A stretch of 64,000 nt of DNA from Selaginella moellendorffii (GCF_000143415.4 NW_003314336.1:720853-784852), one strand, 5' to 3'; shown: positions 23,812-46,734, counted from the stretch's first letter. The notes: a model not told the origin generated them from the sequence alone. A program made the numbers and translations.

Positions 23812-24361
23812 AAAATTTCAAATGCATCAAATAAAGCCCACCATATTTATTGGAACAATGTCAAAGAAAGGCATGTTGAAAGAAATTCCTGAAGAGGCTG
23901 TGTCTTTCATGGAGGTTTGTGTTTCTTTCTCTTTTCCTATCTCTTCTTACTCTTATAAATGATCCATTAGAGACCAATCACTTTAGCTCTCTCAAATCTA
24001 ACATCCAGGACTGAATGCACAGCAGAAGAGGCACTAAAACACACAAGGATGTGCCCTTTTTGTGAGTAGGAGCCTGTTAAAATGAATGGGAAAACATTAA
24101 CTTCAGGCCAGGTATGCTCGAAGTTTTTCTATTGTTTCACACTTACTCTTCTATGTTCCCTTGCAAAATGAACCTATTTTAACCTCCAAAAAGGAGGAGT
24201 GTGAAAAGCTGTTCTACAAAACCATGCGAATTGGTGCCACCCGTGTGTGAGACACAAATCCCTAAGCCCCAAAGTGGAGCCGAAAGGGTGCCACGTGGTA
24301 GTGGCCAAAGTGAAAGCCAAACGAGCATAACACGTTTGGACTAAAAGCTCCGACTTGAGGA

Positions 24362-27600: not shown

Positions 27601-30277
27601 AAGGGATAGAACCTAACCATAGGAAGTGAGGGGCATAATCAAGGGTGGTTATATAAGTTGGAAGTGGAGAATCTTGAGTGTGTTGCTGCTAGCAACTATG
27701 ATGCCATAAAGAGTCTAAATATGGAATTGTCCATGTTAGACCATTTGACAATTAAAAAACTTGTGAAAGGAGAGGCCCTAGCAAGCTAAGGGATAGAGTT
27801 CCTTCAAAGGTTCCCAAAGGCAATTCTAGGTAGTTTAATACCTAGAAAACTAAGTATAAATGGTTCCTAAAACGTGCGAAATCAGAGTGGCACAACAAAA
27901 GCATGGTCTTGAAGCTTGCCATGAGGTGAGGCTATCAAGGTTGGGGAAGTAGTCCTTGAGTGTTCAAAGAGATGGCTTTGAACAAAAGTTGATGGTTAAG
28001 GACTTTCACACTTATGCATGAACCATGGTACGCTGGTCTAGCGACTTGCTAAGCAGACTTAACGAGTCGAGGGAACAAAGACCCTAGTTGAAGGTGTTGA
28101 CTTCAGAAGGGGTGGCTCATGGGGCTAAGCATGGAGGAGTCCATGCATGATCACAGGCTTGTCAAGTGAGGGAACTTAGCAGTTTGGAGGAACTAGGTTC
28201 CTAAGCTGTGATCCGTAGCGCGCTTTGGGCATAAATTAATGCATTGGCATGGGGAGTCACACCTGGCATCCTGGGTGATGCCATCCGTAGATGCATATAT
28301 GGAGGTTGGGTTCAATTCCCAACCCTCTAGTGCTTGGGTTTGAGTCCCAAATCACTAGGGCGTGGTGATGGTTTGGAATATGAAGACACTTATATTTCAG
28401 TGGTCATGGACTCTTAGTGAGGAGACTGGCTTAGGCACACCACCAAGCGGGGGATGCTCCAGAGTCGTGATGCACGGTTAGATTGCTTAAAGTGAAAGTT
28501 CGGTATATCTAACTTGAACACTTTGGTGCAAAGGGCACCAAGGACATGGTGAATGAGATAGGGACACCCAGTCTTAATTGCTATGGATCCTTGGCTAGAA
28601 GGGCTGGCTTGGGTACACCGCCAAGTTTGGGGGATGCCCCCAGGGTCATAGTCAATAATTTAAAAGGGTCTAGAAGACCTAGTTCCTATTAATAAGGAAT
28701 ATGATTCCTAGTTCAAAGTGTTGATTTGAACTATTGATAATGGTGTGATTTGGTCAAAGTGACCAAGTGGTAAGAACACCTAAAGGGAAATTAGTTGTGT
28801 CAATACGATGGTATAGAAAGTTCAAGAAAGTAGTCTCTAGGAGAGACCCATGGGAGGGTCGCAAAGTTGGGCCGTAGACGGAGCCCGTAGCAAAAAATGC
28901 TAAAGAGACCTACTAGAGTGAGCACCCTCTGGATTTAGCAAAGTAGAGCCTTTGCCATAGACCCAAAAGGATACCTCGAGAATGGAGGTAGTGATCCTAT
29001 ATTGCTCAATGCAACAATTAACAGATAAAAGGAAAAGACTAATGGCCAAATTTGGGCCATGGAGTTCATTAAAAAGAATCCAAATGGCAAAGTTAGGCAT
29101 GGAACACTAATGTGTTAGATGCTAACAAATTGTGAGAAAGGAAGTGGGTTTCCAAGGATGGATTCCCAAATACTCCAAGTTGGCAAAGGTGAAAGCTCCA
29201 AGGGAGGGAGCAGCAAAGTAGCTAAATGATAGGGCCGTGGACAGCTCTAGCATAACTTACGATAACTGGAACTTAGTGCCAAAGGTGGCACAAAATAAAA
29301 GGGAGGATAATGGTGCCCTCAAGTGGAGAACTTCTTAAGATGGGGAAGTGAAGTTGCACAATATGTGCAATGAAAGGTGTCAGAAACACCAAGAAAATTG
29401 ACTTCGAGAAGTCAAGACTAAAAGTTCTAAAGTAGAATAATTATATTGATGGAAGTTGAGACTACTCGAAAATGAGAATGGGATTGAGCTAGAGAAAGTG
29501 TCTCTAATGGGTTTAGCAAGAGCTAAACCAATAAAAGGGAGAGAACCACCTGAGGTGGTCAAATGAGTCTCTATGTTAGAAACACTATGCTCCTTAGAGG
29601 TTGAATAAGGCATGGTGAGCCTTCGGTGTCAAACCATTAACGAATATTGGCTAGGTGCCAAGGATGGAAAAGGTAATACATGCTAATGTTACTTTATAAA
29701 ATGGTTTATCGTTAAATGAGGATATCAAACTTTGTCTATGGGTGGTGGAGTTGTGAGACACAAATCCCTAAGCCCCAAAGTGGAGCCGAAAGGTGCCATA
29801 TGGTAGTGGCTGAAGTGAAAGCCAAACGAGCGTAAAAGCTCTATTTCGTTAAAGTGGGAATTGTCATTATCCCACTTGTAAAATAAGGTTTCCAAACCTT
29901 TATATAGTATATAAATATAACAAAATTCAACTGCATTGAGGCACATGCCATTTTATTTTAAACAAGGAAATGTCTACTCAATCACTTCTCCTCCCCCTGC
30001 CACTGCTTCACCTCTCTCTTCTCTTTGTCATCGTCGTCCAATTTCTTTCCATCCTTTTAATATTGGCTCAGTTGCTCCGAGTCTAGGTGGAGCCCAAGTC
30101 CCCATTCAATCTTTACTTTCCCCCTATTAATAAAACAACTTCGTAAACTTCCAATAACATGCTGTAACAGTTCTAGTATAATGTAAATCCTCTCAAAGAA
30201 TTGTCTTTTAATATTAATACAATGGCATGGAACCCCATGCCATAATAAGTTACATTTTTAAATAAATACATGCCATC

Positions 30278-32960
30278 TCAGACTGTTATTTTTTGCCTCC
30301 AACGCCTATACAATAATCTTGGAATTTTTTCACTCTCCACACTATCAGGATTTAAACCCAATAGTAATGCCATCTCTTCTCTAATACGTCCACGCTCATG
30401 TTCAGTGGTCGAAGAACCCATCCGGTTGAGCAGATTATGGAGATGCGGATAGTGCTTGGCTAGACAATATACATGCCATAAATGATGATTGTTGTCTGTC
30501 CGATCAAATGGCTTTTGATATACCGTTCCATCTGCCATTTGGTTGATTTCTGCAGCCACCTTCTGGACTGGCCGGTTCTCTATCACCATCGCTCCAAGCC
30601 GTTTTGCAAGGTCCCCCAGAACATATGGTTTCTTCTCCCTAGTTTCCATACTGCAAGAGATGGGGTGCACGCGTGTTCGCTGCAGTTTTAATCAGCGAGT
30701 CATCGATGATGAGGATTTCACTTGACCTAGCAGTCCGGTTCATCACTACAGCCTTTGGCTTGATGAAGATGGGCTTGCTACCCCTCACATGGACCATAGT
30801 CAAGCAATCCTCCTACATTAGGAGAAAGTCAAATGGTAATATTACTCGCCTCTGATCGTGCATCATCTGTAGCAACGTTAATGCATTGTGGCGCATCATG
30901 GATGTCCAAACTCCCAATTGCAAATTAAACCCGGCCCTCTGTTTTAAGTGTCGCATGGTCATTATTAGATCCCGCAGTTTCTCCTGTGTGATTAATGTGA
31001 ATCTGTCTCTTTTGACCAACTTGCGACTGCAGGCTTTGGAGGGTGCAGTGACATTCGAGGACGAGCCACGCTCATGGGAGAAAAGGACACCGTTCAGATC
31101 AAAAACGATACAGTACCTTCGCCGTAACTCTGAAATGAAATGCGTCAGCATAAAAAATGGTACAAATCAATTTTACCATCTACAATATTAGCGAATGGTG
31201 CTCCCGATGGTCGTTGAGAGGGTTTTGGTCGAGGAAACGTGAAGGGCGGAAATACTCTCCTCTGCAATGTGGGGTCAATCGCATCCGATGGCGTGTGGGC
31301 ACATGCCATTTCAGCTGTAGACTCTGGTACAACTGGCTCAACAGTGGCATGGGGTGGTTCCGATGGCGTGTGATCCCTCCGTTGGCAAAGTGGACATGAC
31401 CGAACAGGCAGCAGGGGCGGTGTAGGGAGGTTCCAACGGCGCGTAGTCAGACGATTGGGCACACGTTGAGTCCGTTGGAAATGAGGATACGACCGGCTCG
31501 GCGGCTGGGGCGGCCTCATGCGGGTCCAATGGCGCCTGGTCACCGTCAGTTGGATACGTGGACAAGATTGACTCAGTGGTATGGGCAGCATCAAGTGGAG
31601 CGTGGTTAGCTTGCTTGGCATTGATATGGATAGTAGCCTCCACCAGCTCTGATGACTCTTGCAGGCAAGTAGAGTCCACTGGCAGATCCATATGCATATC
31701 CAAATATCTCCCTTCGATTGAGATGGTATCCTCCCTACTGGCTACTAAAAACAAACTCATTAGCACATTGAATTGACTATACTATATTTACCATCAACTG
31801 CTATTGAGGAACTAGGACCGATATCACTTGGGCGCACTGCTGATTCTGAAGGATTGGACATACGTTTCGACCCTTACTTGGCACTATCCTTCCTCGACAC
31901 TAAAGGCTAGAGTTTGTATCTTAATTCAACTGAATAATCTCTACTTACCATTTGCTCTGCGACCTACATGGACAATGTTAGAAATGGTAAAAGGTTAGGA
32001 ATGGATGTACTATTATTTACCTGATGGTTTGTCTTGTATGACCTTCCTCCATTGCTCTTTGGCCACCTCAGGCTGGCCATCGTCGTCATCATCGTCGTCG
32101 TCGTTATTGTGATCGTCACCATTGTGAGGACCATCCAAGTCCTCTTCGTCCTCCTCTTCTTTGTCCTCCTCTTCGTCCTTCTGCTCTTCCTACTCATTAT
32201 CTTTCTCTGGCTCCTCATCCCCCTCCTGCATTTCTTCCATAGGCTTCTCAGGCTGGATGGCTTGTTCTTCCAAGACCATCTTGGGAACATCATCTGGCCG
32301 AGTCTCCATCTCAAAATACAAGACATCCATAGCCTGTTTTAGTGCGTGACCTAGGACCGTATCCTCACCCGACTGTCTTAACATGGTTTCTGCACGTTCT
32401 TGCACCCTTCGAAGATGACGAGATGAGAAAAACGTGGCCCTGACTTGAAAAGCATCCCTCATCCATTGTACCTCTCCATTGAGATTGGGGAAGGGGAGTC
32501 CGCCATAGGAATCTAAGTCAGGAGGTGGTGACTGCCTGCTTTCACTCAGCCCTTGATCTGCAATGAATGGCATGAGCACACACGCCATAACCGCGAGGCA
32601 TTACATATCATCTTTTCGTTGCCCTTCTTCCTTTTCGAATCAAACGCCTCTGATCCCGACGACTGTCCAACGTGCTTTCGCTTTTTATGACCACTGTCAG
32701 TTTGAGCTTGATCTACAAGAAATGGCATGAGGACCCATGCAATAACCATGACGCTTTCCTTCCTGTCCTTGGAGGCTCTATCGTGCCTTCCGCATCCTCA
32801 GGTGCCTGCTCCTCAATTCCCCATGCATTCTTTTCTCCCACCATCTGTGTTGTACAGCCTCAGATCCTCGCCTTCCATCCCAAAAGTCCAACTGGTGAGC
32901 TCCTCCCCCTTCTCTGCATCCACATTGACAGTGGCTGGAAGAAGAACGCAATTCCTCGCC
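30278..32960 (-). pseudogene. Copy 1 of the cargo gene: retains the acidic exon and FCP1/NIF-like HAD phosphatase domain (30278-31130); ParB/MTase part deleted
   Basis: YCIVFDLNGVLF, LGVWTSMMRHNA and ILIIDDS motifs; stop codon plus an 11-bp deletion near 30670. Confidence 0.82.
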
Positions 32961-34233
32961 TGTTCAGAAATGCACAACAATTAGAGCTGACAGATGAAAA
33001 GCTAGCAGCTGGAAATAACGTGAGGCCACACGCCATTCACCACTGCATCAGATGTCTTGAGGCTGCATCCTAAGATAGCGTGAGGCTACACGCCATCTGT
33101 AACCGGACTGCACTCGAGAGCCCAATCGGTGCATGCCAATGTTGCTACTGAATGGCATGTGGCCTCATGCCATTTTCTACTTGGCCTAAAAGACTTACCA
33201 TTTGAAGCCGAATGGAGGCGTGACAATCGAGGCCGGACTCGCAGGCGAATGTGCACTGTGTGTGCAGCAGATCGTAGCAGCAAGGCTACTCTGCCACTTA
33301 CAATTGGAGAGTGGCGCTGAAATCTCCTGGGACGCCAAGTGGGCTGCGTGTGGGTGGCGGAGTGGGCGGCGGAGTTGGCGGCGAAGTTACAAACTGGGTG
33401 TGTCTTGAAGTGGACGCCGATGCACACGAGCGCAATGCGAGCGCGAGTGTGATGCAAGCGCGAGTGGATGCCGATGCACACGAGAAACCTGTAGAGAAGG
33501 TAGATGAGTGCGAATGTGAGCGTGATCGAGTGTGCGAGTGCGATGCAAGCGCGAGTAGGAAGCAAAATGCAAAACCTAACCTCACACGCACGAAATGTCA
33601 TGACGGTTGGTAACCCCGCAACGTCATCATTCCTCGGACTTGGGCGCCACCATTAATTTCTGGATCGCCACCCGCATGCATGCACATGAAATCCAAAAGA
33701 AATCTGCAACGTCATCATTCCTCGGACTGCATGCACGCAAAATCCAAAAGAAAGATCATGATTGGGATATCATTTAATACCCTCGCTATATTTATACCAT
33801 GCATGATTGGATATTCCAAAGCATCTTGTATTTCCAAAAATGCCAGATGTTCAGCTAAATAAAGAATGGTATACAATGTCCTTCTTGATGACCCTGCAAA
33901 GAAGCATCTCGATCGGACACCACATGAGACCACACGAGCTTTACAATGTTTCAAGGGCATTTGCCATAGATCCGACCGTTATTTTGCTCCAAGATTCTAC
34001 AGTTTGGTGTGCATTGATCTTTCCATCGACACTGCAAAGGGACATCACAATCAGATATGGGATCACAAGAAACTAACTTCACTAACTCTGGTTTCACCAA
34101 GATCTACGTAAGGAGTTATGAAATGAAATGACCCTCTCTATTGAAATGTGTTTATGGTCCTAGGGGCATTGTGACATATCAAAGGATTTTGCATCAAGTT
34201 CTGTATTTGCATGTTTATCAAGCTACTGAATTG

Positions 34234-34260
34234 CTAAACCCTAAACCCTAAACCCTAAAC
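34234..34260. repeat. Plant telomere-type repeat tract (CCCTAAA)n / telo-boxes inside the transposon
   Basis: CTAAACCCTAAACCCTAAACCCTAAAC; homologous tract at 42156-42181. Confidence 0.9.
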
Positions 34261-34723
34261 ATGTGGCAAATGCTGCGTGAAAAGCTCTATTTCGTTAAAG
34301 TGGGAATTGTCATTATCCCACTTGTAAAATAAGGTTTCCAAACCTTTATATAGTATATAAATATAACAAAATTCAACTGCATTGAGGCACATGCCATTTT
34401 ATTTTAAACAAGGAAATGTCTACTCAATCACTTCTCCTCCCCTTGCCACTGGTTCACCTCTCTCTTCTCCTTGTCATCGTCGTCCAATTTCTTTCCATCC
34501 TTTTAATATTGGCTCAGTTGCTCCGAGTCTAAGTGGAGCCCAAGTCCCCATTCAATCTTTACTTTCCCCTTATTAATAAAACAACTTTGTAGACTTCCAA
34601 TAACATGCTGTAACAGTTCTAGTATAATGCAAATCCTCTCAAAGAATTGTCTTTTAATATTAATACAATGGCATGGAACCCCATGCCATAATAAGTTACA
34701 TTTTTAAATAAATACATGCCATC

Positions 34724-35585
34724 TCAGACTGTTATTTTTTGCCTCCAACGCCTATACAATAATCTTGGAATTTCATCACTCTCCACACTATCAGGATTTA
34801 AACCCAATAGTAATGCCATCTCTTCTCTAATACGTCCACGCTCATATTCAGTGGTCGAAGAACCCATCCGGTTGAGCAGATTATGGAGATGCGGATAGTG
34901 CTTGGCTAGACAATATACATGCCATAAATGATGACTGGTGTCTGTCCGATCAAATGGCTTTTGATATACCATTCCATCTGCCATTTGGTTGATTTCTGCA
35001 GCCACCTCCTGGACTGGCCGGTTCTCTATCACCATCACTCCAAGCCGTTTTGCAAGGTCCCCCAGAACATACGGTTTCTTCTCCCTAGTTTCCATACTGC
35101 AAGAGATGGGGTGCACTGCATATGTGTGCGTGTTCGCTGCAGTTTTAATCGGTGAGTCATCGATGATGAGGATTTCACTTGACCTAGCAGTCCGGTTCAT
35201 CACTACAGCCTCTGGCTTGGCGAAGATGGGCTTGCTACCCCTCACATGGACCATAGTCAAGCAATCCTCCTGCGTTAGGAGAAAGTCAAATGGTAATATT
35301 ACTCGCCTCTGATCGTGCATCATTTGTAGCAACGTTAATGCATTGTGGCGCATCATGGATGTCCAAACTCCCAATTGCAAATTGAACCCGGCCCTCTGTT
35401 TTAAGTGTCGCATGGTCATTATTAGATCCCGCAGTTTCTCCCGTGTGATTAATGTGAATCTGTCTCTTTTGACCAACTTGCGACCGCAGGCTTTGGAGGG
35501 TGCAATGACATTCGAGGACGAGCACGCTCATGGGAGAAAAGGACACCGTTCAGATCAAAAATGATACAGTACCTTCGCCGTGACT
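34724..35585 (-). other. FCP1/NIF-like HAD phosphatase domain (terminal exon of the cargo gene, copy 2)
   Basis: IIFDLNGV, LGVWTSMMRHNA, QEDC, IFAKP and ILIIDDSPIK..N motifs. Confidence 0.85.
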
Positions 35586-38500
35586 CCGAAATGAAATGCG
35601 TCAGCATAAAAAATGGTACAAGTCAATTTTACCATCTACAATATTAGCGAATGGTGCTCCCGATGGTCGTTGAGAGGGTTTTGGTCGAGGAAACGTGAAG
35701 GGCGGAAATACTCTCCTTTGCAATGTGGGGTCAATCGCATCCGATGGCGTGTGGGCACATGCCATTTCAGCTGTAGACTCTAGTACAACTAGCTCAACAG
35801 TGACATGGGGTGGTTCCGATGGCGTGTGATCACACGCCATTTCAGCTGGTGCCTCCATTGGCAAAGTGGACATGACTGAACAGGCAGCAGGGGCGGTGTA
35901 GGGAGGTTCCAATGGCGTGTAGTCAGACGATTGGGCACACGTTGAGTCCGTTGGAAATGAGGATACGACCGGCTCGGTGGCTGGGGCGGCCTCATGCGGG
36001 TCCAATGGCGCCTGGTCACCGTCAGTTGGATACGTGAACAAGATTGACTCAGTGGTATGGGCAACATCAAGTGGAGCGTGGTCAGCTTGCTTGGCGTTGA
36101 TATGGATAGTAGCCTCCACTAGCTATGATGACTCTTGCAGGCAAGTAGAGTCCACTGGCGGATCCATATGCATGTCCAAATATCTCCCTTCAATTGAGAT
36201 GGTATCCTTCCGTGCTACTAAAAACAAACTCATTAGCACATTGAATTGACTATACTGTATTTACCATCAACTGCTATTGAGGAACTAGGACCGATATCAC
36301 TTGGGCGCACTGCTGATTCTGAAGGATTGGACATACATTTCGACCCTTGCTTGGCACTATCCTTCCTCGACACTAAAGGCTAGAGTTTGTATCTTAATTC
36401 AACTGAATAATCTCTACTTACCATTTGCTCTACGACCTACATAGACAATGTTAGAAATGGTAAAAGGTTAGGAATGGATGTACTATTATTTACCTGATGG
36501 TTTGTCTTGTATGACCTTCCTCCGCTGCTCTTTGGCCACCTCAGGCTGGCCATCATCGTCATCATCGTCGTCGTCGTTATTGTGATCGTCACCATTGTGA
36601 GGACCATCCAAGTCCTCTTCGTCCTCCTCTTCTTCGTCCTCCTCTTCGTCCTTCTGCTCTTCCTGCTCATTATCTTTCTCTGGATCCTCATCCCCCTCCT
36701 GCATTTCTTCCATAGGTTGCTCAGGCTGGATGGCTTGTTCTTCCAGGACCATCTTGGGAACATCATCTGGCCGAGTCTCCATCTCAAAATACAAGACATC
36801 CATAGCCTGTTTTAGTGCGTGGCCTAGGACCGTATCCTCACCCGACTGTCTTAACATGGTTTCTGCACGTTCTTGCACCCTTTGAAGATGACGAGATGAG
36901 AAAAACATGGCCCTGACTTGAAAAGCATCCCTCATCCATTGTACCTCTCCATTGAGATTGGGGAAGGGGAGTCCGCCATAGGAATCTGAGTCAGGAGGTG
37001 GTGACTGGCTGCTTTCACTCAGCCCTTGATCTGCAATGAATGGCATGAGCACACACGCCATAACCGCGAGGCATTACCTATCATCTTTTCGTTGCCCTTC
37101 TTCCTTTTCGAATCAAACGCCTCTGATCCCGACGACTGTCTAACGTGCTTTCGCTTTTTATGACCACTGTCAGTTTGAGCTTGGCTGGTGCTTGCCTGTT
37201 TTGCCTTTGAAGAAGTGTCTCTTGCAAGGAATGGCATGAGACCACACGCCATTGCAAATATAATTTGTACCTCCTTTTTTCCTATTGCTTGTCTGTTTGT
37301 CCTTCTTCGACGCGCCACTAGTGCGCTTTTCAGTCCTCGTGTCTGAATATTCACAACGATCTATAATCAAAATGGCGTGAGGCCTCACGTGACCTTACCT
37401 TGTGCAGGTTGTGAGCTCGGCCCAACATGGGTATCTTCAACAGTAGCTGTTAACGCCGTTTCAGCATCTGGGGGTGGCCACGCTCCTGCATACAGAGCTT
37501 GTGAGATAACATTTAAACTTAAAGTGCGTACTCACCAAATTCGCAGAGAAGATACTGTTTTTCTTTGGCAACTGTAATTATATGCTCCATTGAAGTCACC
37601 TCTTCAATGGAGTTTGTCACCGCAACACACGGGACACCCTTGAGTAGTGCGGCTCGAAAGAATAGTCCGCCGCAGTTGTACTCGACAACGCATTTGCCCT
37701 TGGAGTCGGAAGCAGGTGACCCACCTGCTATTGCATTGAAGACCCAGCTGAGCATTTCCCATGCTGCACCTGGACCTTTCTCTGGATTCGAAAGCTCCAT
37801 AGCCGTCTTCAGTTCCTCAGGCACGGGTAAATTGACCTCCCTCAGATCAATTCGATCGGCCTTGTCGAACGAAGCTGGGAAGTCACTCCAGTCCCACTCT
37901 GCTGCAGGACCAATAACAAGGGCGAGTGTGAAGATGCGGACATTCGTTGGTATCTTCTTCTTAGCTATTATCCCATGGATCTCCCGCATCTCCTTGCCTT
38001 TCAACCGAGCCTTCACCTCGTTCAAGGCCTTCCAGAACTTGTGATAGGATTCGGAGTCGTAGATCATATAGTGGACTGAAGATTCCACCTCCGCAAGTCC
38101 CACCATTAAGTTAATGGTGGAGCTGACTTCGTCTGCATGAGTGATCTCCTCGTTTGTGAAGTCCATCACACAAAATATGTTCTTGACCTGCTCATCTCCG
38201 CGGGAAACGATGCTCCTCCACCTTTGATCCTCATCCGAATTCAAGTATACCCGGTAAGGTTCTCGATAGGCCTCTGCTGTGGGGTCGAGCTGTTTCTGAA
38301 GCCGGCGGTCGACATCACTCTTAATGAAATTTGGATACTGATCCAACTTCTCAGCTTTACTTTTCGTGGCATCCCGCAGCAGATCGATGAACTTGGGGGC
38401 CCCCTTCACGTACTCGTCGATGTCTTCATTTGACAAATCCAGCGCTTCCATCATCTCTTGCGTGGTGTCGATGCTCACCCTTTCCACGGCCACTTGCTCG

Positions 38501-39039
38501 AAGATCCAATCCTTCAATAGCGCACGAGCTCTCAGAGTCGTGCACAAGTCCTCGTATGTCACAATATGGCCAGGAGTCATTTTGGTCTTGTTGAAGACTA
38601 CCTCACCACGTAGAAGAGCATTAGCCACTGTCAGAAGGTCGTCGTCGTCTAGAGACCGTGAGAAATGCAAGGCGTTGAGCTTCAAATCATTGGGCTTCCG
38701 GCCGTCCTCCACACCCATTGAGTTTGGCAACTCCCCGTCATGGTACCTCCTCAGCACATCTACCCATTTGTCAAAAACAACTTTTGTCGCGAGTAGAATG
38801 TTATGGATGCTGAGTGTGTCATTGACCCCCAGTGTTTTCGAGAGAAGACTTGAGAATTCCTGCAATGGAAATGGCGTGAGGCCACATGCTATGCCACATG
38901 CAACGAGGCTTACCTGCCAGGCGCTAGTTGCTAGTGCACGTCCTTGTCCTGGTTTTTGTGGCTTCTTCAGTTGAACCCAGAGCTTCCGTGTTCGTGCCAA
39001 TGTCTCGTGCAGACCCGATTTGTAGCACGTTTCTTGCTT

Positions 39040-39430
39040 GACATTCTGCACATGGGAGATGTATATGATAGATCGGAGGGGCGAGTTGCCTTTTATCAGG
39101 CGGACAACTCTTGTCTTGAAGACTTTCTTCACCTCCTCGCCCACCATAATATCCACAACTATCTCTTGCATCGCCAAACTAGAATGCTACCTGGAGACGG
39201 CATAGAACCGGATGTTCTGATCGTCCAACACCTTCCTATTGATCAAGTCTGGAAACCTCGTCTCGCCCTTCATTGTTCGGTAGTAGGGGATCACGTCTGC
39301 GATGTCGGGTGTTACTGGACTTGCCAGCATCTTCTGCTTCAGTTTCTCCACCCACTCATTAGATACTAGCCTGTGGTTGTATTTGCTTTGGATGTCGATA
39401 CGGCTCACATCGATTGTATATACTTTGTTG
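39040..39430 (-). other. ParB/Sulfiredoxin-like N-terminal domain of the cargo protein
   Basis: IDVSRIDI..YNHRLVSNEWVEKLKQKM..P..ADVIP...FYAVS(R*)HSSLAM...IIYISHVQN matches the ParB-N pattern; AGG TAG is readable as a mutated GGG CAG (GQH). Confidence 0.62.
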
Positions 39431-39520
39431 GAATAGTAACAAGTACTATTATCTGCGACGATTTTTGCTGCCTCTTCTTGCTCTTTCTGCTCTTTGCGGC
39501 TCTTCTTTTTGGTGGGTGTA

Positions 39521-40114
39521 TGTAAGCAACCAAAGAGAACGACTTGAGAGACGGTCCATGGGGTTCAAATATAGAGGGAAAGGGCCCATGAATAAGAGTG
39601 CACCCCCTTTTCCAATCGGTTAAGGGTCTTGGGATATTTGGGGTTAAGCTTCCTTGGGTTTGAATAGTACTGGGCTGGGTGACCTCCCGGGAAGTCCAAA
39701 CTCAGGAGCTTACATTTGGTATCGGAGCGGGTCTCGGGTCCGACTCTGTTGGTTGGCTAGGGGAATCACACCACATGTTGATTGACATCTGGCTGATCCA
39801 GTTTGCTCCCGCTGGGCTCGACCCGAGGGGTAGGGTGTCAAGAGAGCGGGGCTCTCGGGAGAGCTGCGGCTCTCAGCTTCTGTTCACGAGGGCGTGAACT
39901 TGCAGGGAAGCATGGTGGATTGTAAGCAACCAAAGAGAACGACTTGAGAGACGGTCCATGGGGTTCAAATATAGAGGGAAAGGGCCCATGAATAAGAGTG
40001 CACCCCCTTTTCCAATCGGTTAAGGGTCTTGGGATATTTGGGGTTAAGCGTCCTTGGGTTTGAATAGTACTGGGCTGGGTGACCTCCCGGGAAGTCCAAA
40101 CTCAGGAGCTTACA
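39521..40114 (+). mobile_element. Cassandra TRIM (5S-rRNA-bearing LTRs), complete and very young
   Basis: 194-bp LTRs (39521-39714, 39921-40114) with 1 mismatch; TSD GTGTA; PBS TGGTATCGGAGC at 39717; 206-bp non-coding interior; 5S internal control region-like segment in each LTR. Confidence 0.95.
40042..40097 (+). promoter_or_regulatory. 5S rRNA-derived Pol III internal promoter (A-box/IE/C-box) in the Cassandra LTR; twin at 39642-39697
   Basis: GTTAAGCGTCCTTGGGTTTGAATAGTACTGGGCTGGGTGACCTCCCGGGAAGTCC vs plant 5S GTTAAGCGTGCTTGGGCGAGAGTAGTACTAGGATGGGTGACCTCCTGGGAAGTCC. Confidence 0.88.
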
Positions 40115-43100
40115 GTGTAGTGTTCGAACCCGAGGCAATGGCATCACCGAGTAGCTTCTTTTTTGGAGGAGAGTCGGATGTCGGCTTGAGCTTGACCACC
40201 CTTTTCTACTTCGGGGTAGTTTCCAGATCGACCCCCTTCCCCTTCGCTTCGCGAACTGGAGGCACTCTCAACGGCTCAATGTTGGAATATAGTTTTTGAA
40301 CATCGCCGTTGGTGAGGTCCGTGGATTCCATGTGATCTTCATAGACCCGCAGCGTCTTTGAAATTGTAGGCCTCCTGGACAACCTCTCCCTAGCTCCCTC
40401 TAGGATTTCCTCATAGCCGCTGCCCCCCTCCAGGAAGCTGCTAGGATGTGCAAGGTGGATCTTGAAGGTAGACGCTGTCTCTACCACAAGTGTCAGTCCA
40501 TATTCTTGCATGGAACTGCATGGAGTGTCTGTCACTTGGATGAGGATCCTCATGCATTCTTTTCTCCCACCATCTGTGTTGTACAGCCTCAGATCCTCCC
40601 CTTCCATCCCAAAAGTCCAACTGGTGAGCTCCTCCCCCTTCTCTGCATCCACATTGACAGTGGCTGGAAGAAGAACGCAACTCCTCGCCTGTTTAGAAAT
40701 GCACAACAATTAGAGCTGACAGATGAAAAGCTAGCAGCTGGAAATAACGTGAGGCCACACGCCATTCACCACTGCATCAGATGTCTTGAGGCTGCATCCT
40801 AAGATGGCGTGAGGCTACACGCCATCTGTAACCAGACTGCACTCGAGAGCCCAATCGGTGCATGCCAATGTTGCTACTGAATGGCATGTGGCCTCATGCC
40901 ATTTTCTACTTGGCCTAAAAGACTTACCATTTGAAGCCGAATGGAGGCGTGACAACCGGACTCACTGGCGAATGTGCACAGTGTGTGCAGCGGATCGTAG
41001 CAGCAAGGCTACTCTGCCACTTACAGTTGGAGAGTGGCGCTGAAATCTCCCGGGACGCCAAGTGGGCTGCGTGTGGGTGGCGGAGTGGGCGGCAGAGTTG
41101 GCGGCGAAGTTACAAACTGGGTGTGTCTTGAAGTGGACGCCGATGCACACGAGCGCGATGCGAGCGCGAGTGTGATGCAAGCGCGAGTGGACGCCGATGC
41201 ACACAAGAAACCTGTAGAGAAGTGGGAGTGCGAGTGGGAGCGCGATGCGAGCGCGAGTACGAAGCAAAATGCAAAACCTAACCTCACACGCGCGAAATGT
41301 CATGACAGTTGGTAATCCCGCCACATCATCATTCCTCGGACTTGGGCGCCACCATTAATTTCTGGATCGCTGCGCGCATGCGTGAAATCCAAAAGAAATC
41401 CGCAACGTCATCATTCCTCGGACTGCATGCACGCGAAATCCAAAAGAAAGATCATGATTGGGATATCATTTAATACCCTCGCTATATTTATACCATGCAT
41501 GATTGGATATTCCAAAGCATCTTGTATTTCCAAAAATGCCAGATGTTCAGCTAAATAAATTGTCAGAGGATTTGATGTGACGTTCAAGCGTGTGGGCTCA
41601 TGCAATTTTGATCCCAAAAAATGCACCAAAAAATGCTCGGCGTCATCTGGCGTTATCTCTTGAATGGCATGGGGCCGCATGCCATTTTCAGGAGCACATA
41701 GAAGTATATTCCTAGAATATTATGATACGCGCAAGATTCTTTTGAGTTTCCTAGAGATCCAACCGTTAGATCACAACTAGATTTTACAGAATGGTATACA
41801 ATGTCCTTCTTGATGACCCTGCAAAGAAGCATCTTGATCTGACACCACATGAGACCACACGAGCCTTACAATGTTTCAGGGGCATTTGCCATAGATCCGA
41901 CCGTTATTTTGCTCCAAGATTCTACAGTTTGGTGTGCATTGATCTTTCCATCGACACTGCAAAGGGACATCACAATCAGATGTAGGATCACAAGAAACCA
42001 ACTTCACTAACTCTGGTTTCACCAAGATCTACATAAGGAGTTATGAAATGAAAGGACCCTCTCTATTGAAATGTGTTTATGGTCCTAGGGGTGTGACATA
42101 TCAAAGGATTTTGCATCAAGTTCTGTATTTGCATGTTTATCAAGCTACTGAATTGCTAAACCCTAAACCCTAACCCTAAACATGTGGCAAATGCTGCGTG
42201 AAGAAAGATGCCCTTTCTGGGCAAATGCTGTAAGAGGCAGATGCCGAGCAGATGTATCTCAGGCTAGCGAAGGGGACAAACGAAAGCTAGCTATAAACAT
42301 GACGGGATGCAAATAGATTACTAGGCTGGTTCTGCGAAAATCAAAAACCATAATTGAAAACATTGAAAATGCAAAAAGAAAGGTTTATAATATTTTTGAA
42401 TTTTAAGCAACAAAGGAATGTAAGTAGGGCATGTGTTTGTAAGTTTAAAAATGCCTCAACCACTTAAATTCCCAAGTAAATAAAGCTGTTTCTATTTTTG
42501 GTACAGGTAAACTTTATAGCGTGTGGGCTCATGCAATTTTGAACCCAAAAATGCACCAAAAAATGCTCGACTAGCATTATTCTTTGAATGGCATGTGGCC
42601 TTATATTGCCATAAATGGACGTACACACACAACATAATTATTCCTTTACACGGCGAATAATCTTGGCGCGGATCGCTGACATGGCATGGCAAAGTTCGAA
42701 TCACTGACATGGCACAGCTGGATCGAGGCAAGGACATGATGTGACAAAGTTCAACCTCCGACAGCAAAGTCTAGAAGCTACTCAGTTTGAAATTTGTCAG
42801 AGGAATCATAAGATCTGGTTTGTCAGAGGATTTGATGTGACGTTCAAGCGTGTGTTATTTTTGAATTCTCGAACTCATTCCTAGGTCTATCATTTTTGTG
42901 TGCCGTGTTCTTGGTTCCGCTGAGCGCAGTGAGCGCTGCTTGTGTAAGCGGCATTGTGAGCTGTGGTTTATGCGTCTACAAGCGGTTACGGCATTGCGAG
43001 CGCCATTGCGAGCGGCAGTTTATGCGAGTGGCAGTTTGTGCGAGCGGCGCTACGAGTAGTTGCGGTGTTGCGAGCGGCACTATCTTTGGTGTGGTTACCG

Positions 43101-43435
43101 CTTCCTCTTGATATTCGGCACTTGTGCTTCCTGGTATGTTCACCATGGAATGGTTTAGGACCACATTTAGAAATGGCATGAAGCCACATGCCATCTTGGG
43201 CCCTTGCAATTTCATGGCTAGCGTATTGTCATGTATGTTTTTACTTGCCTGCAGCTGTGTGTATATCAAGATGGCATGAGGGCTCATGCCAATTTTGTGA
43301 ATGCGAAATTTCACGTGGGTGTCAATAGCATGTTTGAATAATGGCATGTGGCCTCATGCTATTTGGTACGTTATGATTTAGGCCATTCTCCAATCGTTTT
43401 TTGTATGGTCTTAACTTCTTTTCTGCACTTTCAGA

Positions 43436-45217
43436 ATGGCCTTTAGGGTTGGGGAAAAGGTTTACATTTTGAATGGTGGGAAGAGAGTTGCAAAAGGGAC
43501 CCTTGTGTCTATGGATCGGAACTTTGTTATACACTGTCAAAGGCTTGGGGAAGGCAATGCTGCTGTATCAGTAGAGACTGTCTTCGATGGGAATGTGGTC
43601 GCTATTGAACGAGGAGAGATGGTCGTCGAGGTAAATGTTGTTGTTGCCTTGAAAAATCTGCAGAAGAAAGCAGATGTTGGGGACAGCGCAAGTGCGACGC
43701 ATGTTCCCTCCGTGGATCTTAAGAACCGTGCTACATGGATTCAGGCAAAGGTGTTTCTAAACAACCCCGAGGGGGAGGTGGTAGCTGAGGGCTTAGCCAC
43801 AGTTGTCGATCCAAGAGATGCGGTTGCTAATCAAGAATTGGGCTGGGATGATATTAGAGTTGCGATTTTAGAGGTTGTTGACACAGAAGAAAATAGTCTG
43901 ACTATTGGAAGCATTGTGCGGTGGAAATTGAGGCATTTAGTGTTTGAGAATGTGAAGGATTCACAATCAAACACCACTACAACTGATGACAGAACATCTC
44001 TTCATGGGAAAAGAAAGTACACCTTCCTACAGCGCAGCCAAAGGGATCTGAGCAACGAACCGAAAAGGCAAAAAATGGCGATGGAGGTTCGAATGGTCTC
44101 GACAGTTGCTTGTTGCAAGAGGAGGTGCTGTCAACATGCTGATTGGGATGCTATTGAAGAGGAGAGAGCAAGATACAAGACATTGTCCTGGAAGGCAGCT
44201 CGCAATTTTGTGTATGAAGCATTACGGTCATCTGTTGATGCTTCAGAACATCAGGTGGGGGGCATGGTCTTCCAGAGGGGTTTGGTCTGCATGAAGGCAT
44301 GGAGAATCATTTATGGAGTCCCTCGAAGCACATTCTACAGAATCAAAACTGAGTTCGAGGAACAAAGGGTTCAACAGACAGTCCATGGGAACGACGGTAC
44401 GCACAAAACCAGGGGTCATGTTGTATATGGAGAGGCAATCTTTAAGAGGTTTGTCGAGACATGTAGCGAGTAGCAACCACATAAAACCCGCCTCTTGGAA
44501 GATGGAACACGAGACACCCAACGAGTTCTCCCTTCCATGTATACCAAGGGGGCCATATTGGAAGATGTGAATCGGGAACTCCAGAGTAATGGCTATAGGA
44601 AGCTGAGCCAATCTAGATTTAGTAGATTGTGGAGCAACAGGTTCAGGGATGTGAGTATAGGAAAGTACTCCAGCTTTTCAAAGTGTGACGAGTGCACTGC
44701 TATCAAAATGGCTTTGTCGAAGAATTCTTGTAGTGCTCAAGAGAGAGAGACGTTGGTTAGAAGGCGGCTCAACCACAACATCGAGCAAAGAAGCTGTAGG
44801 ACTACATATTATCATAACAGGATTCTCTCCATGGAGAGACCTGACTCTTACCTCTGCATCATCCACGACAAAATGGACCAGAAAAAGACGTGCTTACCTC
44901 GACTCAATCCTGCCCCCAAGGCAATCTCTTCATCCATGCAGCTGCCTGTGTCTCTGTTTGGCATAATCGCTCATGGGCATGGTGCCCAGAACTATGGGAA
45001 CTTCTTTGTACCTCTATGGGGTGGCGGGGGTGCAAACATGATGATTGCGTCCCTAGCAAAACACTTATGTCGGCTTGTTCACCTTGACAATGAGATTTAT
45101 TATACAACCATATGGACTCAGTCTGGACACAAAGTCACCGCGCTAGTCACCATGCCTCAGATATGTCTAGCCCCTGGACAAAAAACATATAATTTCACGT
45201 CATTTTCAAATACTTGA
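43436..45217 (+). pseudogene. Sola-like DDE transposase, with one in-frame stop (44471-44473) and an apparent 3' truncation
   Basis: CCKRRCC, VCMKAWRIIYGVPRSTFY, FSKCDEC, YLCIIHDKMDQKKTCLP and LFGIIAHG motifs; similarity appears to end at ~45080, ~170 bp before the right TIR; the 4-bp TSD fits Sola. Confidence 0.8.
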
Positions 45218-46734
45218 AAATTTGTACCTAGTCCCATTTTACTGAATAAATCCCACTTTAACGAAATAGAGCTTGTAACATGTTTGGACTAAAAGCTCCA
45301 ACTTGAGGAGTCCAAGATGGATCTAAGATGGAGTCTGAGATGGATCGAGATGGAATCTGAGATGGACCGAGATTGAGTCTGAGATGGACCCAAGATGGAG
45401 TCCGAGATGGACTGAGATGGAGTCCGAGATGGAGTCCGAGAGCACCTAAAGGCAGAAGGTGGGGAGAGTACCCATGGGGCTTGCATAGGGCCACGGTGTT
45501 CCGAAGTGTTGTCCTAGAGTCCCAAACTAGGGAAAGGAGGAGGAGCAGTCCTTTAGTGTAGTGACTAAGGATATGGTCACATGGTGAGGAAGTCCCAAAG
45601 GACAATGGGATTTAGTGGCTAGGCCTACAGGCCTTGATCTAGTGGCAATGTTGGCAAACATGGCCATGGACAGAAAAGGGACTTGGTAAGAATTGACAAA
45701 GGGATATTGGGGAAGGTTATTCGCCATGTCTATAGGCATCCTAAGGATGCTAAGGAGTGGATCTAGGATGACCACTTGTGGACAGATGGCCCAGTCTTGG
45801 AGATCCGGGACTGTGATGCAAGTGGTATTGGACCACCAGTGTGGCAAAGGTGAATGGGCATGGCCTTAGTGTAATGGGCTGATATGTCAGTGGCACCTTT
45901 GGGTGTTAGTCTTGGGACCCGACACGTAGAGCACTTGGACTAAATGTAACAGTTGAGTGGCATGAATGCCATTCTTGGGGGTAGCAAATCCCTAAGTCCG
46001 GAATAGGACTTATGGAGGTTGTGAGTGAGACTCCTCCAAACAGCCAGAGGTGTGGTTAAGTGACTAAAGTAGAATGGAAAATTTAGTCACTTACACCGTG
46101 GTAGCTTGACATCACTCTTTATTTCATCTTTTATGCAAATGGCTCAAAGCTTGGAATTAGTTCTTCACCCAAAGGATTGCCACAATTTTCTAAATGATGC
46201 TGCTCTCTGTACAAAAAAAAGATACTCTCTTCATGAGAGAGTATACACATGACCAAATGACTTGGTAATTTCACATCAAAGAATTAGGTGCTTTTGAACT
46301 GCATATTCTCTCATCGCTGCCTGGTTTCTAAAACTCTTGCAGTGGCAGATGGCATAGTGCTGGCTAGATAGGCAAGAAGAGGAAAGGTATGTGCCTGAAT
46401 TGACAGATAATTTATTTGCTAAGCTTTGAAAACCTCACACAAATCCTGAACAAGAATCCATTTCTAGATAGCATTGGAAGGTTTTAGAGGACTGATGTAA
46501 AAAAAATCGTAAAAGGAGACAAACTCAACCTCTGAAGGTGAAAGATATGATGACTTCACACAAAGAATTTCATTTCAGGCTATTCAATTTCCTGATTCTG
46601 ATGTTTATTTATTCACCTACATTATCTTTGCTACCACATCTGAATGTTTAAACTGGCAGGAGTTACCGAATATGGCAAAAATTTAAAAATAAAGACAACC
46701 TTTTTTATTCTTTTGCTTTCCCCGTTTCCATGAA

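What the first reader, a model, noticed from the sequence alone, without database searches (positions are those of the whole stretch)
37031..38913. Palindromes housed inside ~50-nt introns of the cargo gene
Four predicted minus-strand GT-AG introns (37031-37077, 37219-37270, 37343-37398, 38860-38913) each contain one palindrome, which fills about 40-47% of the intron. Introns may allow binding sites to be placed along a coding region without cost to the protein. Alternatively the hairpin acts in RNA (splicing autoregulation), or the unit is an introner-like mobile intron.
Basis: partly seen in the sequence, partly recalled or inferred. Interest (0 to 1): 0.78.

Follow-up and report, generated by a model that had tools for sequence, protein, structure and literature searches.

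The report
Transposon binding sites doubling as branch-points
A plant jumping gene carries 16 copies of one mirror-image DNA word, four of them packed into tiny, likely real introns of its cargo gene where half of the word sits at the predicted splicing branch point; the word is likely a docking site for the element's own predicted DNA-binding protein, a design already proposed in algae, and not a mobile intron.

Summary
The four palindromes are there and fill 39-47% of their introns. The introns are likely real but splicing was not seen: three RNA runs (about 12% of each read) gave no reads over them. Support is indirect: a ten-intron model gives a 1,630-residue frame, strong splice sites select these introns (4 of 6,028 frame solutions), and a Selaginella RefSeq homologue lacks exactly the 18 residues of intron 38860-38913. 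The word is not intron-specific: 16 copies lie in an 11-kb Sola-like transposon (7 intronic, 2 coding, 7 other non-coding); 5 of 9 short introns have none. The spacer is always 6 bp. Introner origin is rejected, and an RNA hairpin is weak (2 of 4 fold well). In 4 of 4 short introns the sense right arm reads CTCAY, in three at the gene's usual branch distance. Best reading: family-specific DNA sites for the predicted ParB-like cargo protein, lodged in older introns, working like VANDAL/VANC. Binding and cargo fold are untested or only leads. New variant of a known kind.

The parts
34282..45274 (.). Main copy of a Sola-like cut-and-paste DNA transposon (cargo gene on -, transposase on +, head to head)
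   Evidence: 24-bp terminal inverted repeats, 4-bp flanking duplication, empty paralogous site at about 24325
29836..34281 (.). Internally deleted tandem copy of the left part of the element, 96% identical, with 8 palindromes
   Evidence: self-BLAST, alignment, scan
29832..29835 (+). Left target-site duplication GTAA
45275..45278 (+). Right target-site duplication GTAA
34282..34305 (+). Left terminal inverted repeat of the main copy (24 bp)
45251..45274 (-). Right terminal inverted repeat (24 bp)
34724..40930 (-). Cargo gene, predicted 11 exons and 10 introns, about 1,630 aa: predicted ParB-like domain (about 39190-39450), helical region, methyltransferase-like domain with degenerate motifs (about 37540-38200), low-complexity K/S, acidic and Pro-rich exons, FCP1/NIF-like tail. 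This copy is broken (3 stops, 1 frameshift, 1 insertion)
   Evidence: domain names are leads below threshold
38860..38913 (-). Short intron, 54 nt, in frame and stop-free; position shared with a Selaginella homologue
38871..38892 (.). Palindrome, 1 mismatch; sense right arm CTCAC with A at -18
37343..37398 (-). Short intron, 56 nt (38 nt with the alternative acceptor at 37361)
37372..37393 (.). Palindrome, 3 mismatches; sense right arm CTCAC with A at -36 (or -18)
37219..37270 (-). Short intron, 52 nt in this copy, 49 nt with the family's acceptor
37231..37252 (.). Palindrome, 0 mismatches; sense right arm CTCAT with A at -19 (-16 family)
37031..37077 (-). Short intron, 47 nt
37040..37061 (.). 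Palindrome, 0 mismatches; sense right arm CTCAT with A at -16
40689..40927 (-). First intron, 239 nt, with three palindromes (40744, 40804, 40881)
37486..37535 (-).
36437..36493 (-). Short intron without palindrome (57 nt)
36373..36421 (-). Short intron without palindrome (49 nt)
36218..36264 (-). Short intron without palindrome (47 nt)
35586..35632 (-). Short intron without palindrome (47 nt; acceptor mutated in this copy, AG in the upstream copy)
35744..35840 (.). Two perfect palindromes inside the Pro-rich coding exon, read as a repeated peptide
34376..34689 (.). Two palindromes in the 3' untranslated/subterminal region (34376, 34668)
41664..43362 (.). Five palindromes between the genes and upstream of the transposase (41664, 42516, 43173, 43271, 43341)
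39521..40114 (.). Small LTR insertion (two 194-bp LTRs, 5-bp duplication) interrupting exon 2; not part of the system
43436..45090 (+). Transposase-like reading frame, one internal stop, apparently cut short after the second acidic motif; no palindromes
   Evidence: Sola-like motifs recognised from recall, no Pfam hit

Best explanation
The palindromes are four of 16 copies of an element-wide, fixed-spacing inverted DNA word in a plant cut-and-paste transposon, and they likely act as docking sites for the element's own predicted ParB-like cargo protein, lodged in likely real and older introns of that protein's gene. Shown: the word is confined to the element, avoids coding sequence, keeps a 6-bp spacer and has two equal half-sites. 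Inferred: in a 47-56-nt intron a 22-bp site fits only by overlapping splice signals, so the free A/T position of the half-site is set to give CTCAY, and the right arm would serve as the branch point, which would also lock the site in. Because the catalytic motif of the methyltransferase-like domain looks degenerate, binding is more likely than self-methylation in this family.
For: Element-specific: 21 of 21 sites with up to 2 mismatches lie in the element. Spacer 6 only; 0 sites at spacers 4, 5, 7, 8. Half-site core nearly invariant over 32 half-sites (C 32, T 32, G 31) with a free A/T position (13 A, 14 T). Non-coding bias p 5e-5, intron bias p 4e-5. Eight clusters fairly evenly spaced, CV 0.30, p about 0.05 post hoc. 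Intron reality. Intron older than the word: homologues P0013 and P0014 begin with ...ILQ at the same junction and lack the L-T/M-P that the word would give (inference from gene-caller starts). CTCAY in 4 of 4 sense right arms against 8 of 28 other arms (Fisher p 0.014), at -16 to -19 in three introns (and in the fourth with its alternative acceptor), against -15 to -17 in 4 of 5 palindrome-free introns. Cargo leads: ParB-clan DndB by features, score 0.90; ParB-like PHROG E 0.079; N6/N4 methyltransferase clusters 0.80-0.82. Precedent: Ectocarpus Sola1-1, Bostrychia PAG3, VANC sites in introns.
Against: No binding, expression or methylation data. No RNA read crosses any of the junctions; the gene was uncovered in three raw RNA runs. 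Domain calls are below every threshold: no Pfam hit, no significant fold match for a model of mean pLDDT 58. Open frame alone does not force these introns (6,028 solutions; only 320 cover the 37231 site). The branch-point test is post hoc and the introns may not be independent. 5 of 9 short introns have no site, and 2 sites are coding. No DNA of related families was obtained to show that each has its own word.
Confidence: 0.55

Rival explanations
1. The word is a DNA site, but its reader is the transposase or a host dimeric factor, not the cargo protein.
For: Three sites lie just upstream of the transposase frame. Sequence-specific activation by Spm TnpA and by a Mu transposase is reported (bioRxiv 10.64898/2026.08.24.746577; abstract start, passages). 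The outer arm resembles a YY1-type GCCATNTT word (recalled, not tested).
Against: Sites are spread through the interior, not concentrated at the ends, and the word is not in the terminal repeats; TnpA effects were terminal in that paper. No strong site in 48.6 kb outside the element, as a host factor's site might give. ParB-type proteins are known inverted-repeat readers (passage).
Confidence: 0.2
2. The palindrome acts in pre-mRNA as a hairpin that hides the branch point and so regulates splicing of the cargo gene.
For: Two introns fold into a stem that buries the CTCAU (z -2.8 and -1.7, better on the sense than the antisense strand). 5 G-U against 3 A-C pairs on the sense strand over 7 intronic sites.
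Against: The other two introns do not fold better than shuffles (z 0.45, -0.22), and 38860-38913 folds better antisense. The loop-closing pair is mismatched in 6 of 7 intronic sites. The spacer never varies. Nine of 16 sites are outside introns.
Confidence: 0.1
3. The word has no current function in these introns: it spread by local tandem duplication or conversion of exon-intron units and survives only because its arm supplies a branch point.
For: The upstream copy holds a fifth, different palindrome unit at 32713-32759 with a broken donor; two runs show contigs that diverge at 37371 and 37180, so units turn over. The left arm is decayed at 37372 and 38871 while the right arm is intact.
Against: Flanks of the palindromes are not alike, yet both arms and the spacer are kept in most of 16 dispersed sites, also where no splicing occurs.
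Confidence: 0.1
4. The palindrome-bearing introns are introners, mobile units that made new introns.
For: Four introns of similar size share a central word in one orientation; whole-intron identity 47-73% including the word; a 5-nt junction repeat at 38860-38913.
Against: 5' parts show no similarity beyond chance (1 of 36 pairs at p below 0.1); junction repeats are 1-2 nt in the other three, and a palindrome-free intron has 4; position shared with a distant homologue; no joint in two DNA-like contig sets covering all 30 bins (contigs drop rare variants); the word lies mostly outside these introns.
Confidence: 0.02

Closest known systems
Sola1-1_Ec32 of Ectocarpus (PMC12477816; passages, supplement rows)
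   Same: Large Sola-type element, 4-bp duplication biased to end in A, accessory gene on the strand opposite the transposase, predicted ParB-like plus N4/N6 methyltransferase domains, proposed to bind and modify its own element.
   Different: No palindromes mentioned in the main text (0 hits for 'palindrom'); 282-bp TIR against 24 bp here; 1,104 aa against about 1,630 aa with an FCP1/NIF-like tail; catalytic motif here looks degenerate.
Plavaka PAG3 of Bostrychia (bioRxiv 10.1101/2025.02.11.637652; passages)
   Same: Transposon accessory protein with a ParB-like N-terminus and inverted repeats proposed as its own binding sites.
   Different: EnSpm-type element, oxygenase fusion, repeats in tandem arrays next to the gene; here sites are dispersed and placed inside minimal introns.
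VANDAL/VANC of Arabidopsis (PMC5735166; passages)
   Same: Family-specific short words enriched in introns, intergenic and terminal non-coding regions of the element; variable exon-intron organisation tied to tandem repeats.
   Different: Mutator superfamily, unrelated protein, asymmetric 9-mer in same-orientation tandem arrays, binding and demethylation shown by experiment; here a 22-bp inverted word, nothing shown.
Introners (PMC9860276; passages)
   Same: Several short introns sharing sequence.
   Different: Introners need end-to-end similarity; interior-only similarity, as here, is what that pipeline excludes.
Bacterial ParB-parS (bioRxiv 10.1101/2025.10.10.680097; passages)
   Same: Palindromic sites and a predicted ParB-fold protein; ParB fused to N6/N4 methyltransferase is common in phages.
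   Different: No ParA; fold, nucleotide binding and sliding untested here.

Membership tests
Spliceosomal (U2) introns | GT donor, branch-like word, YAG acceptor | tested here: met
   one acceptor is canonical only in family contigs
Spliceosomal (U2) introns | Removal restores the frame or matches homologous protein | tested here: met
   (4 strong-site solutions of 6,028); exact 18-aa gap against P0007
Spliceosomal (U2) introns | Junction reads in RNA | tested here: inconclusive
   no reads over the gene in 3 raw RNA runs, about 12% of each read
Introner | Similarity extending to both intron ends | tested here: not met
Introner | New position or presence/absence allele | tested here: not met
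   position shared with homologue for 1 of 4; no joints in majority contigs; other three positions have no homologue to test
Introner | Copies in unrelated host genes | not testable with these tools
   no genome held; no strong site in 48.6 kb outside the element
Sola superfamily | Terminal inverted repeats and 4-bp target duplication | tested here: met
   4-bp duplication for Sola1
Sola superfamily | Sola1 AWWT-type target preference | tested here: not met
   GTAA here; AWWT in insects, A-ending in Ectocarpus; single site
Sola superfamily | Transposase homologous to Sola transposases | tested here: inconclusive
   no Pfam or PHROG hit; motif likeness recalled; no Sola reference on hand
ParB-methyltransferase transposon cargo | ParB-fold N-terminal domain | tested here: inconclusive
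   leads only; this domain was not folded
ParB-methyltransferase transposon cargo | Beta-class N4/N6 methyltransferase fold | tested here: inconclusive
   feature scores 0.80-0.82; fold searches without significant match
ParB-methyltransferase transposon cargo | Intact catalytic (D/S/N)PPY motif | tested here: not met
   no such motif in the translation; the aligned column reads DFTN, DLRR, DSAN, DANS, DATT (motif identity recalled)
VANDAL/VANC | Family-specific word enriched in non-coding parts of the element | tested here: met
VANDAL/VANC | Mutator transposase and VANC homologue | tested here: not met
   4-bp duplication, no MULE or VANC family hit
VANDAL/VANC | Accessory protein binds the word and lowers methylation | not testable with these tools
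   needs experiment

The most novel reading that the evidence does not exclude
A plant transposon has evolved dual-coded sites: the same letters are a parS-like half-site for its ParB-like clamp in DNA and the branch point of a minimal intron in RNA. The sites cannot be lost without breaking the cargo gene, they tile the coding region at about 1-kb steps for a load-and-slide, methylation-free protection of the element, and occupancy or hairpin formation feeds back on splicing of the cargo's own message.
Probability: 0.2. Interest if true: 0.8.

Novelty: new variant of a known kind. Interest (0 to 1): 0.5.

Why it matters
[quoted passage not shown] ParB-fold accessory genes in algal and plant transposons are predicted to do so but untested. 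This element gives a sharp 22-bp candidate site with 16 copies, so binding can be tested at once. It also shows how a transposon may place sites along a 5-kb coding region by using pre-existing minimal introns, with the site overlapping the predicted branch point. My two searches for that combination found no paper describing it; subscription journals and bioRxiv supplements were not searchable.

Tried and rejected
No genome held, so copy number and genome-wide word counts were not possible. Run search: no RNA holder listed; this is no evidence on expression. Two single-sequence homologue searches found nothing; a profile search returned only one input relative. The HMMER search gave 6 hits, of which I dropped 2 as repeat artefacts (P0003, P0004). 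The metagenome scan gave one bacterial glycosyltransferase locus, a false hit, so no DNA of related families was seen. Single-sequence fold failed (pLDDT 32); the 5-sequence model matched nothing significant in PDB, VIA-wide (best Z 5.9) or viral libraries. PDB sequence searches and phage tblastn were uninformative. Searches had off-by-one intron coordinates, corrected in 19 and 50; and 76 used a fifth unit with a 3-nt offset, corrected in 91. CpG profile showed no clear tie to the sites. Absence of listed family differences inside the four palindromes (40 of 46 rows shown) is not significant (about 1 expected) and was not counted. Marchantia DN4MT1 (passages) and Iyer et al. 2016 (passages) were read as possible relatives; neither describes this cargo. 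The original Sola paper was not held. No complex prediction was run.

Full report
Setting. The window is repeat-rich plant DNA (gypsy-type pol and gag hits). The finding lies in a cut-and-paste element at 34282-45274 with 24-bp terminal inverted repeats. A deleted tandem copy sits at 29836-34281, the pair is flanked by a 4-bp GTAA duplication, and a paralogous empty site lies near 24325. A transposase-like frame runs on + from 43436; its Sola-like motifs are my recall, and no family library confirmed them. The closest named protein is from Selaginella moellendorffii at 25% identity. Unchecked notes on this genome call the host a spikemoss. No genome is held.

Are the introns real? All four are GT-AG, 47-56 nt. 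With six further introns they give one frame from an ATG at 40930 to an FCP1/NIF-like tail, about 1,630 residues, broken by 3 stops and 1 frameshift. An open frame alone is weak: 6,028 chains of up to four 38-70-nt GT-AG introns bridge the 37540-37030 region, and at least three introns are needed. The 38860-38913 intron is in frame and stop-free, so the frame cannot test it. The RefSeq Selaginella protein P0007 reads WQ-EF across an exact 18-residue gap there, and the older model of the same locus differs by two residues at that junction. Direct proof is missing: raw RNA runs X8, X9 and X10 (about 12% of each read) put no read on 36840-39429, while the nested LTR insertion was covered. Contigs of X1, X2, X7 and X12 are unspliced and look like DNA. 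X2 and X7 cover all 30 bins of 36380-39510 at depth about 70 with no joint, and lack the stop at 39189, so the family is likely multi-copy and probably has intact members.

The palindrome. ATGGCRTG-N6-CAYGCCAT occurs 16 times in the main copy and 8 times in the deleted copy at up to 3 mismatches, against 3 (all at 3 mismatches) in the other 48.6 kb; at up to 2 mismatches 21 of 21 are in the element, and none has a spacer of 4, 5, 7 or 8. Of the 16, 7 are in introns (4 short, 3 in the first intron), 2 in a Pro-rich coding exon and 7 in other non-coding parts; none is in the transposase frame. Introns are 6.7% and coding sequence 63% of the length (p 4e-5 and 5e-5). Five of nine short introns have no site. 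Over 32 half-sites the core C-R-T-G is nearly invariant and the next position is freely A or T. Sites form eight clusters 0.7-1.7 kb apart, more even than random at p about 0.05 (post hoc). This is the pattern of a site for a dimeric DNA-binding protein (inference).

Overlap with the branch point. In 4 of 4 short introns the sense right arm reads CTCAY, against 8 of 28 other arms (Fisher p 0.014, post hoc, introns perhaps not independent). Its A lies at -18, -19 (-16 in the family) and -16 in three introns, where it is the only such word in range, and at -36 or -18 in the fourth, depending on the acceptor. Four of five palindrome-free introns have CTNAY at -15 to -17. So the arm likely serves as the branch point. 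A fifth such unit with a broken donor is in the deleted copy, and two runs hold contigs that diverge at 37371 and 37180, so these units seem to turn over among copies.

Rivals. Introner: the defining end-to-end similarity (PMC9860276, passages) is absent; 5' parts are unrelated and junction repeats match controls; one position is old. Two distant homologues called without splicing start with ...ILQ at that junction, which suggests the same intron without this word (inference). RNA hairpin: z -2.8 and -1.7 for two introns, 0.45 and -0.22 for the others; G-U against A-C is 5 to 3. It is not excluded, since the stem would bury the branch A. A transposase or host reader remains open (passages).

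The cargo. Feature search points the 39190-39513 piece to DndB-like, ParB-clan clusters (0.90, low recognition) and the main frame to N6/N4 methyltransferase clusters (0.80-0.82); a ParB-like PHROG scores E 0.079. These are leads. Fold searches found nothing significant. The catalytic PPY motif is absent here and in the aligned homologues, so I favour binding over self-methylation.

Comparison. The design matches Ectocarpus Sola1-1_Ec32 (PMC12477816; passages and supplement rows) and Bostrychia PAG3 with its inverted-repeat arrays (bioRxiv 2025.02.11.637652; passages), both proposals without binding data. It works like VANDAL/VANC, whose words are enriched in introns and were shown to be bound (PMC5735166; passages), but it is not a member. 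Other papers seen as passages only: PMC4738411, bioRxiv 2021.02.12.428880, bioRxiv 2025.10.10.680097, PMC3845634, PMC9033089, PMC4455052, bioRxiv 10.64898/2026.08.24.746577. bioRxiv supplements were closed and may describe repeat positions. Earlier scan notes report the same kind of element in other plant genomes; they are unchecked and not independent support, but they led me to the two algal papers.

Verdict. Observation largely right, introns likely real, introner wrong, hairpin unlikely. Best reading: family-specific DNA sites for the element's own cargo, lodged in older minimal introns and overlapping the predicted branch point (0.55). What is new is that placement; searches found no description of it. 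New variant of a known kind, interest 0.5.

Noticed in passing
window 39521-40114: A 594-bp LTR element (two 194-bp LTRs, 5-bp duplication) splits exon 2 of the cargo. Its family is transcribed: stranded reads in two RNA runs, some ending near 40099 with a T-rich loose end.
   Followed up: partly
window 40988-41027: A 40-nt stretch upstream of the cargo start matches 168 and 103 RNA reads whose flanks come from another locus: a piece shared with an expressed host or repeat transcript.
   Followed up: no
window 35744-35840: Two perfect palindromes lie inside a coding exon as a repeated peptide (EMAC-HTPS), in a stretch where nearby short introns have no site; one is removed by a 20-nt deletion in the upstream copy.
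   Followed up: partly
window 32713-32817: The deleted copy has a segment absent from the main copy, with a fifth intron-like palindrome unit and a broken donor.
   Followed up: partly
window 43133-43435: Three palindromes upstream of the transposase lie between GT and AG signals on the + strand, two with CTCAT arms; possibly 5' untranslated introns of the transposase gene.
   Followed up: no
window 34724-35585: The cargo ends in an FCP1/NIF-like HAD domain (Pfam NIF E 0.005, below cut-off; DLNGVL motif), not mentioned for the algal cargo proteins in the passages read.
   Followed up: no
window 42150-42180 and 34235-34260: Short plant telomere-like repeats inside the element, just before the point where the deleted copy joins the main copy.
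   Followed up: no
P0001/P0007/P0008/P0009: Selaginella moellendorffii has annotated 379-451-aa genes homologous to the middle of the cargo, without the ParB-like part in the models; possibly domesticated or partial copies.
   Followed up: no
window 40960-41300 and 42930-43090: CpG-rich tandem repeats flank the two divergent gene starts, next to palindrome clusters.
   Followed up: no
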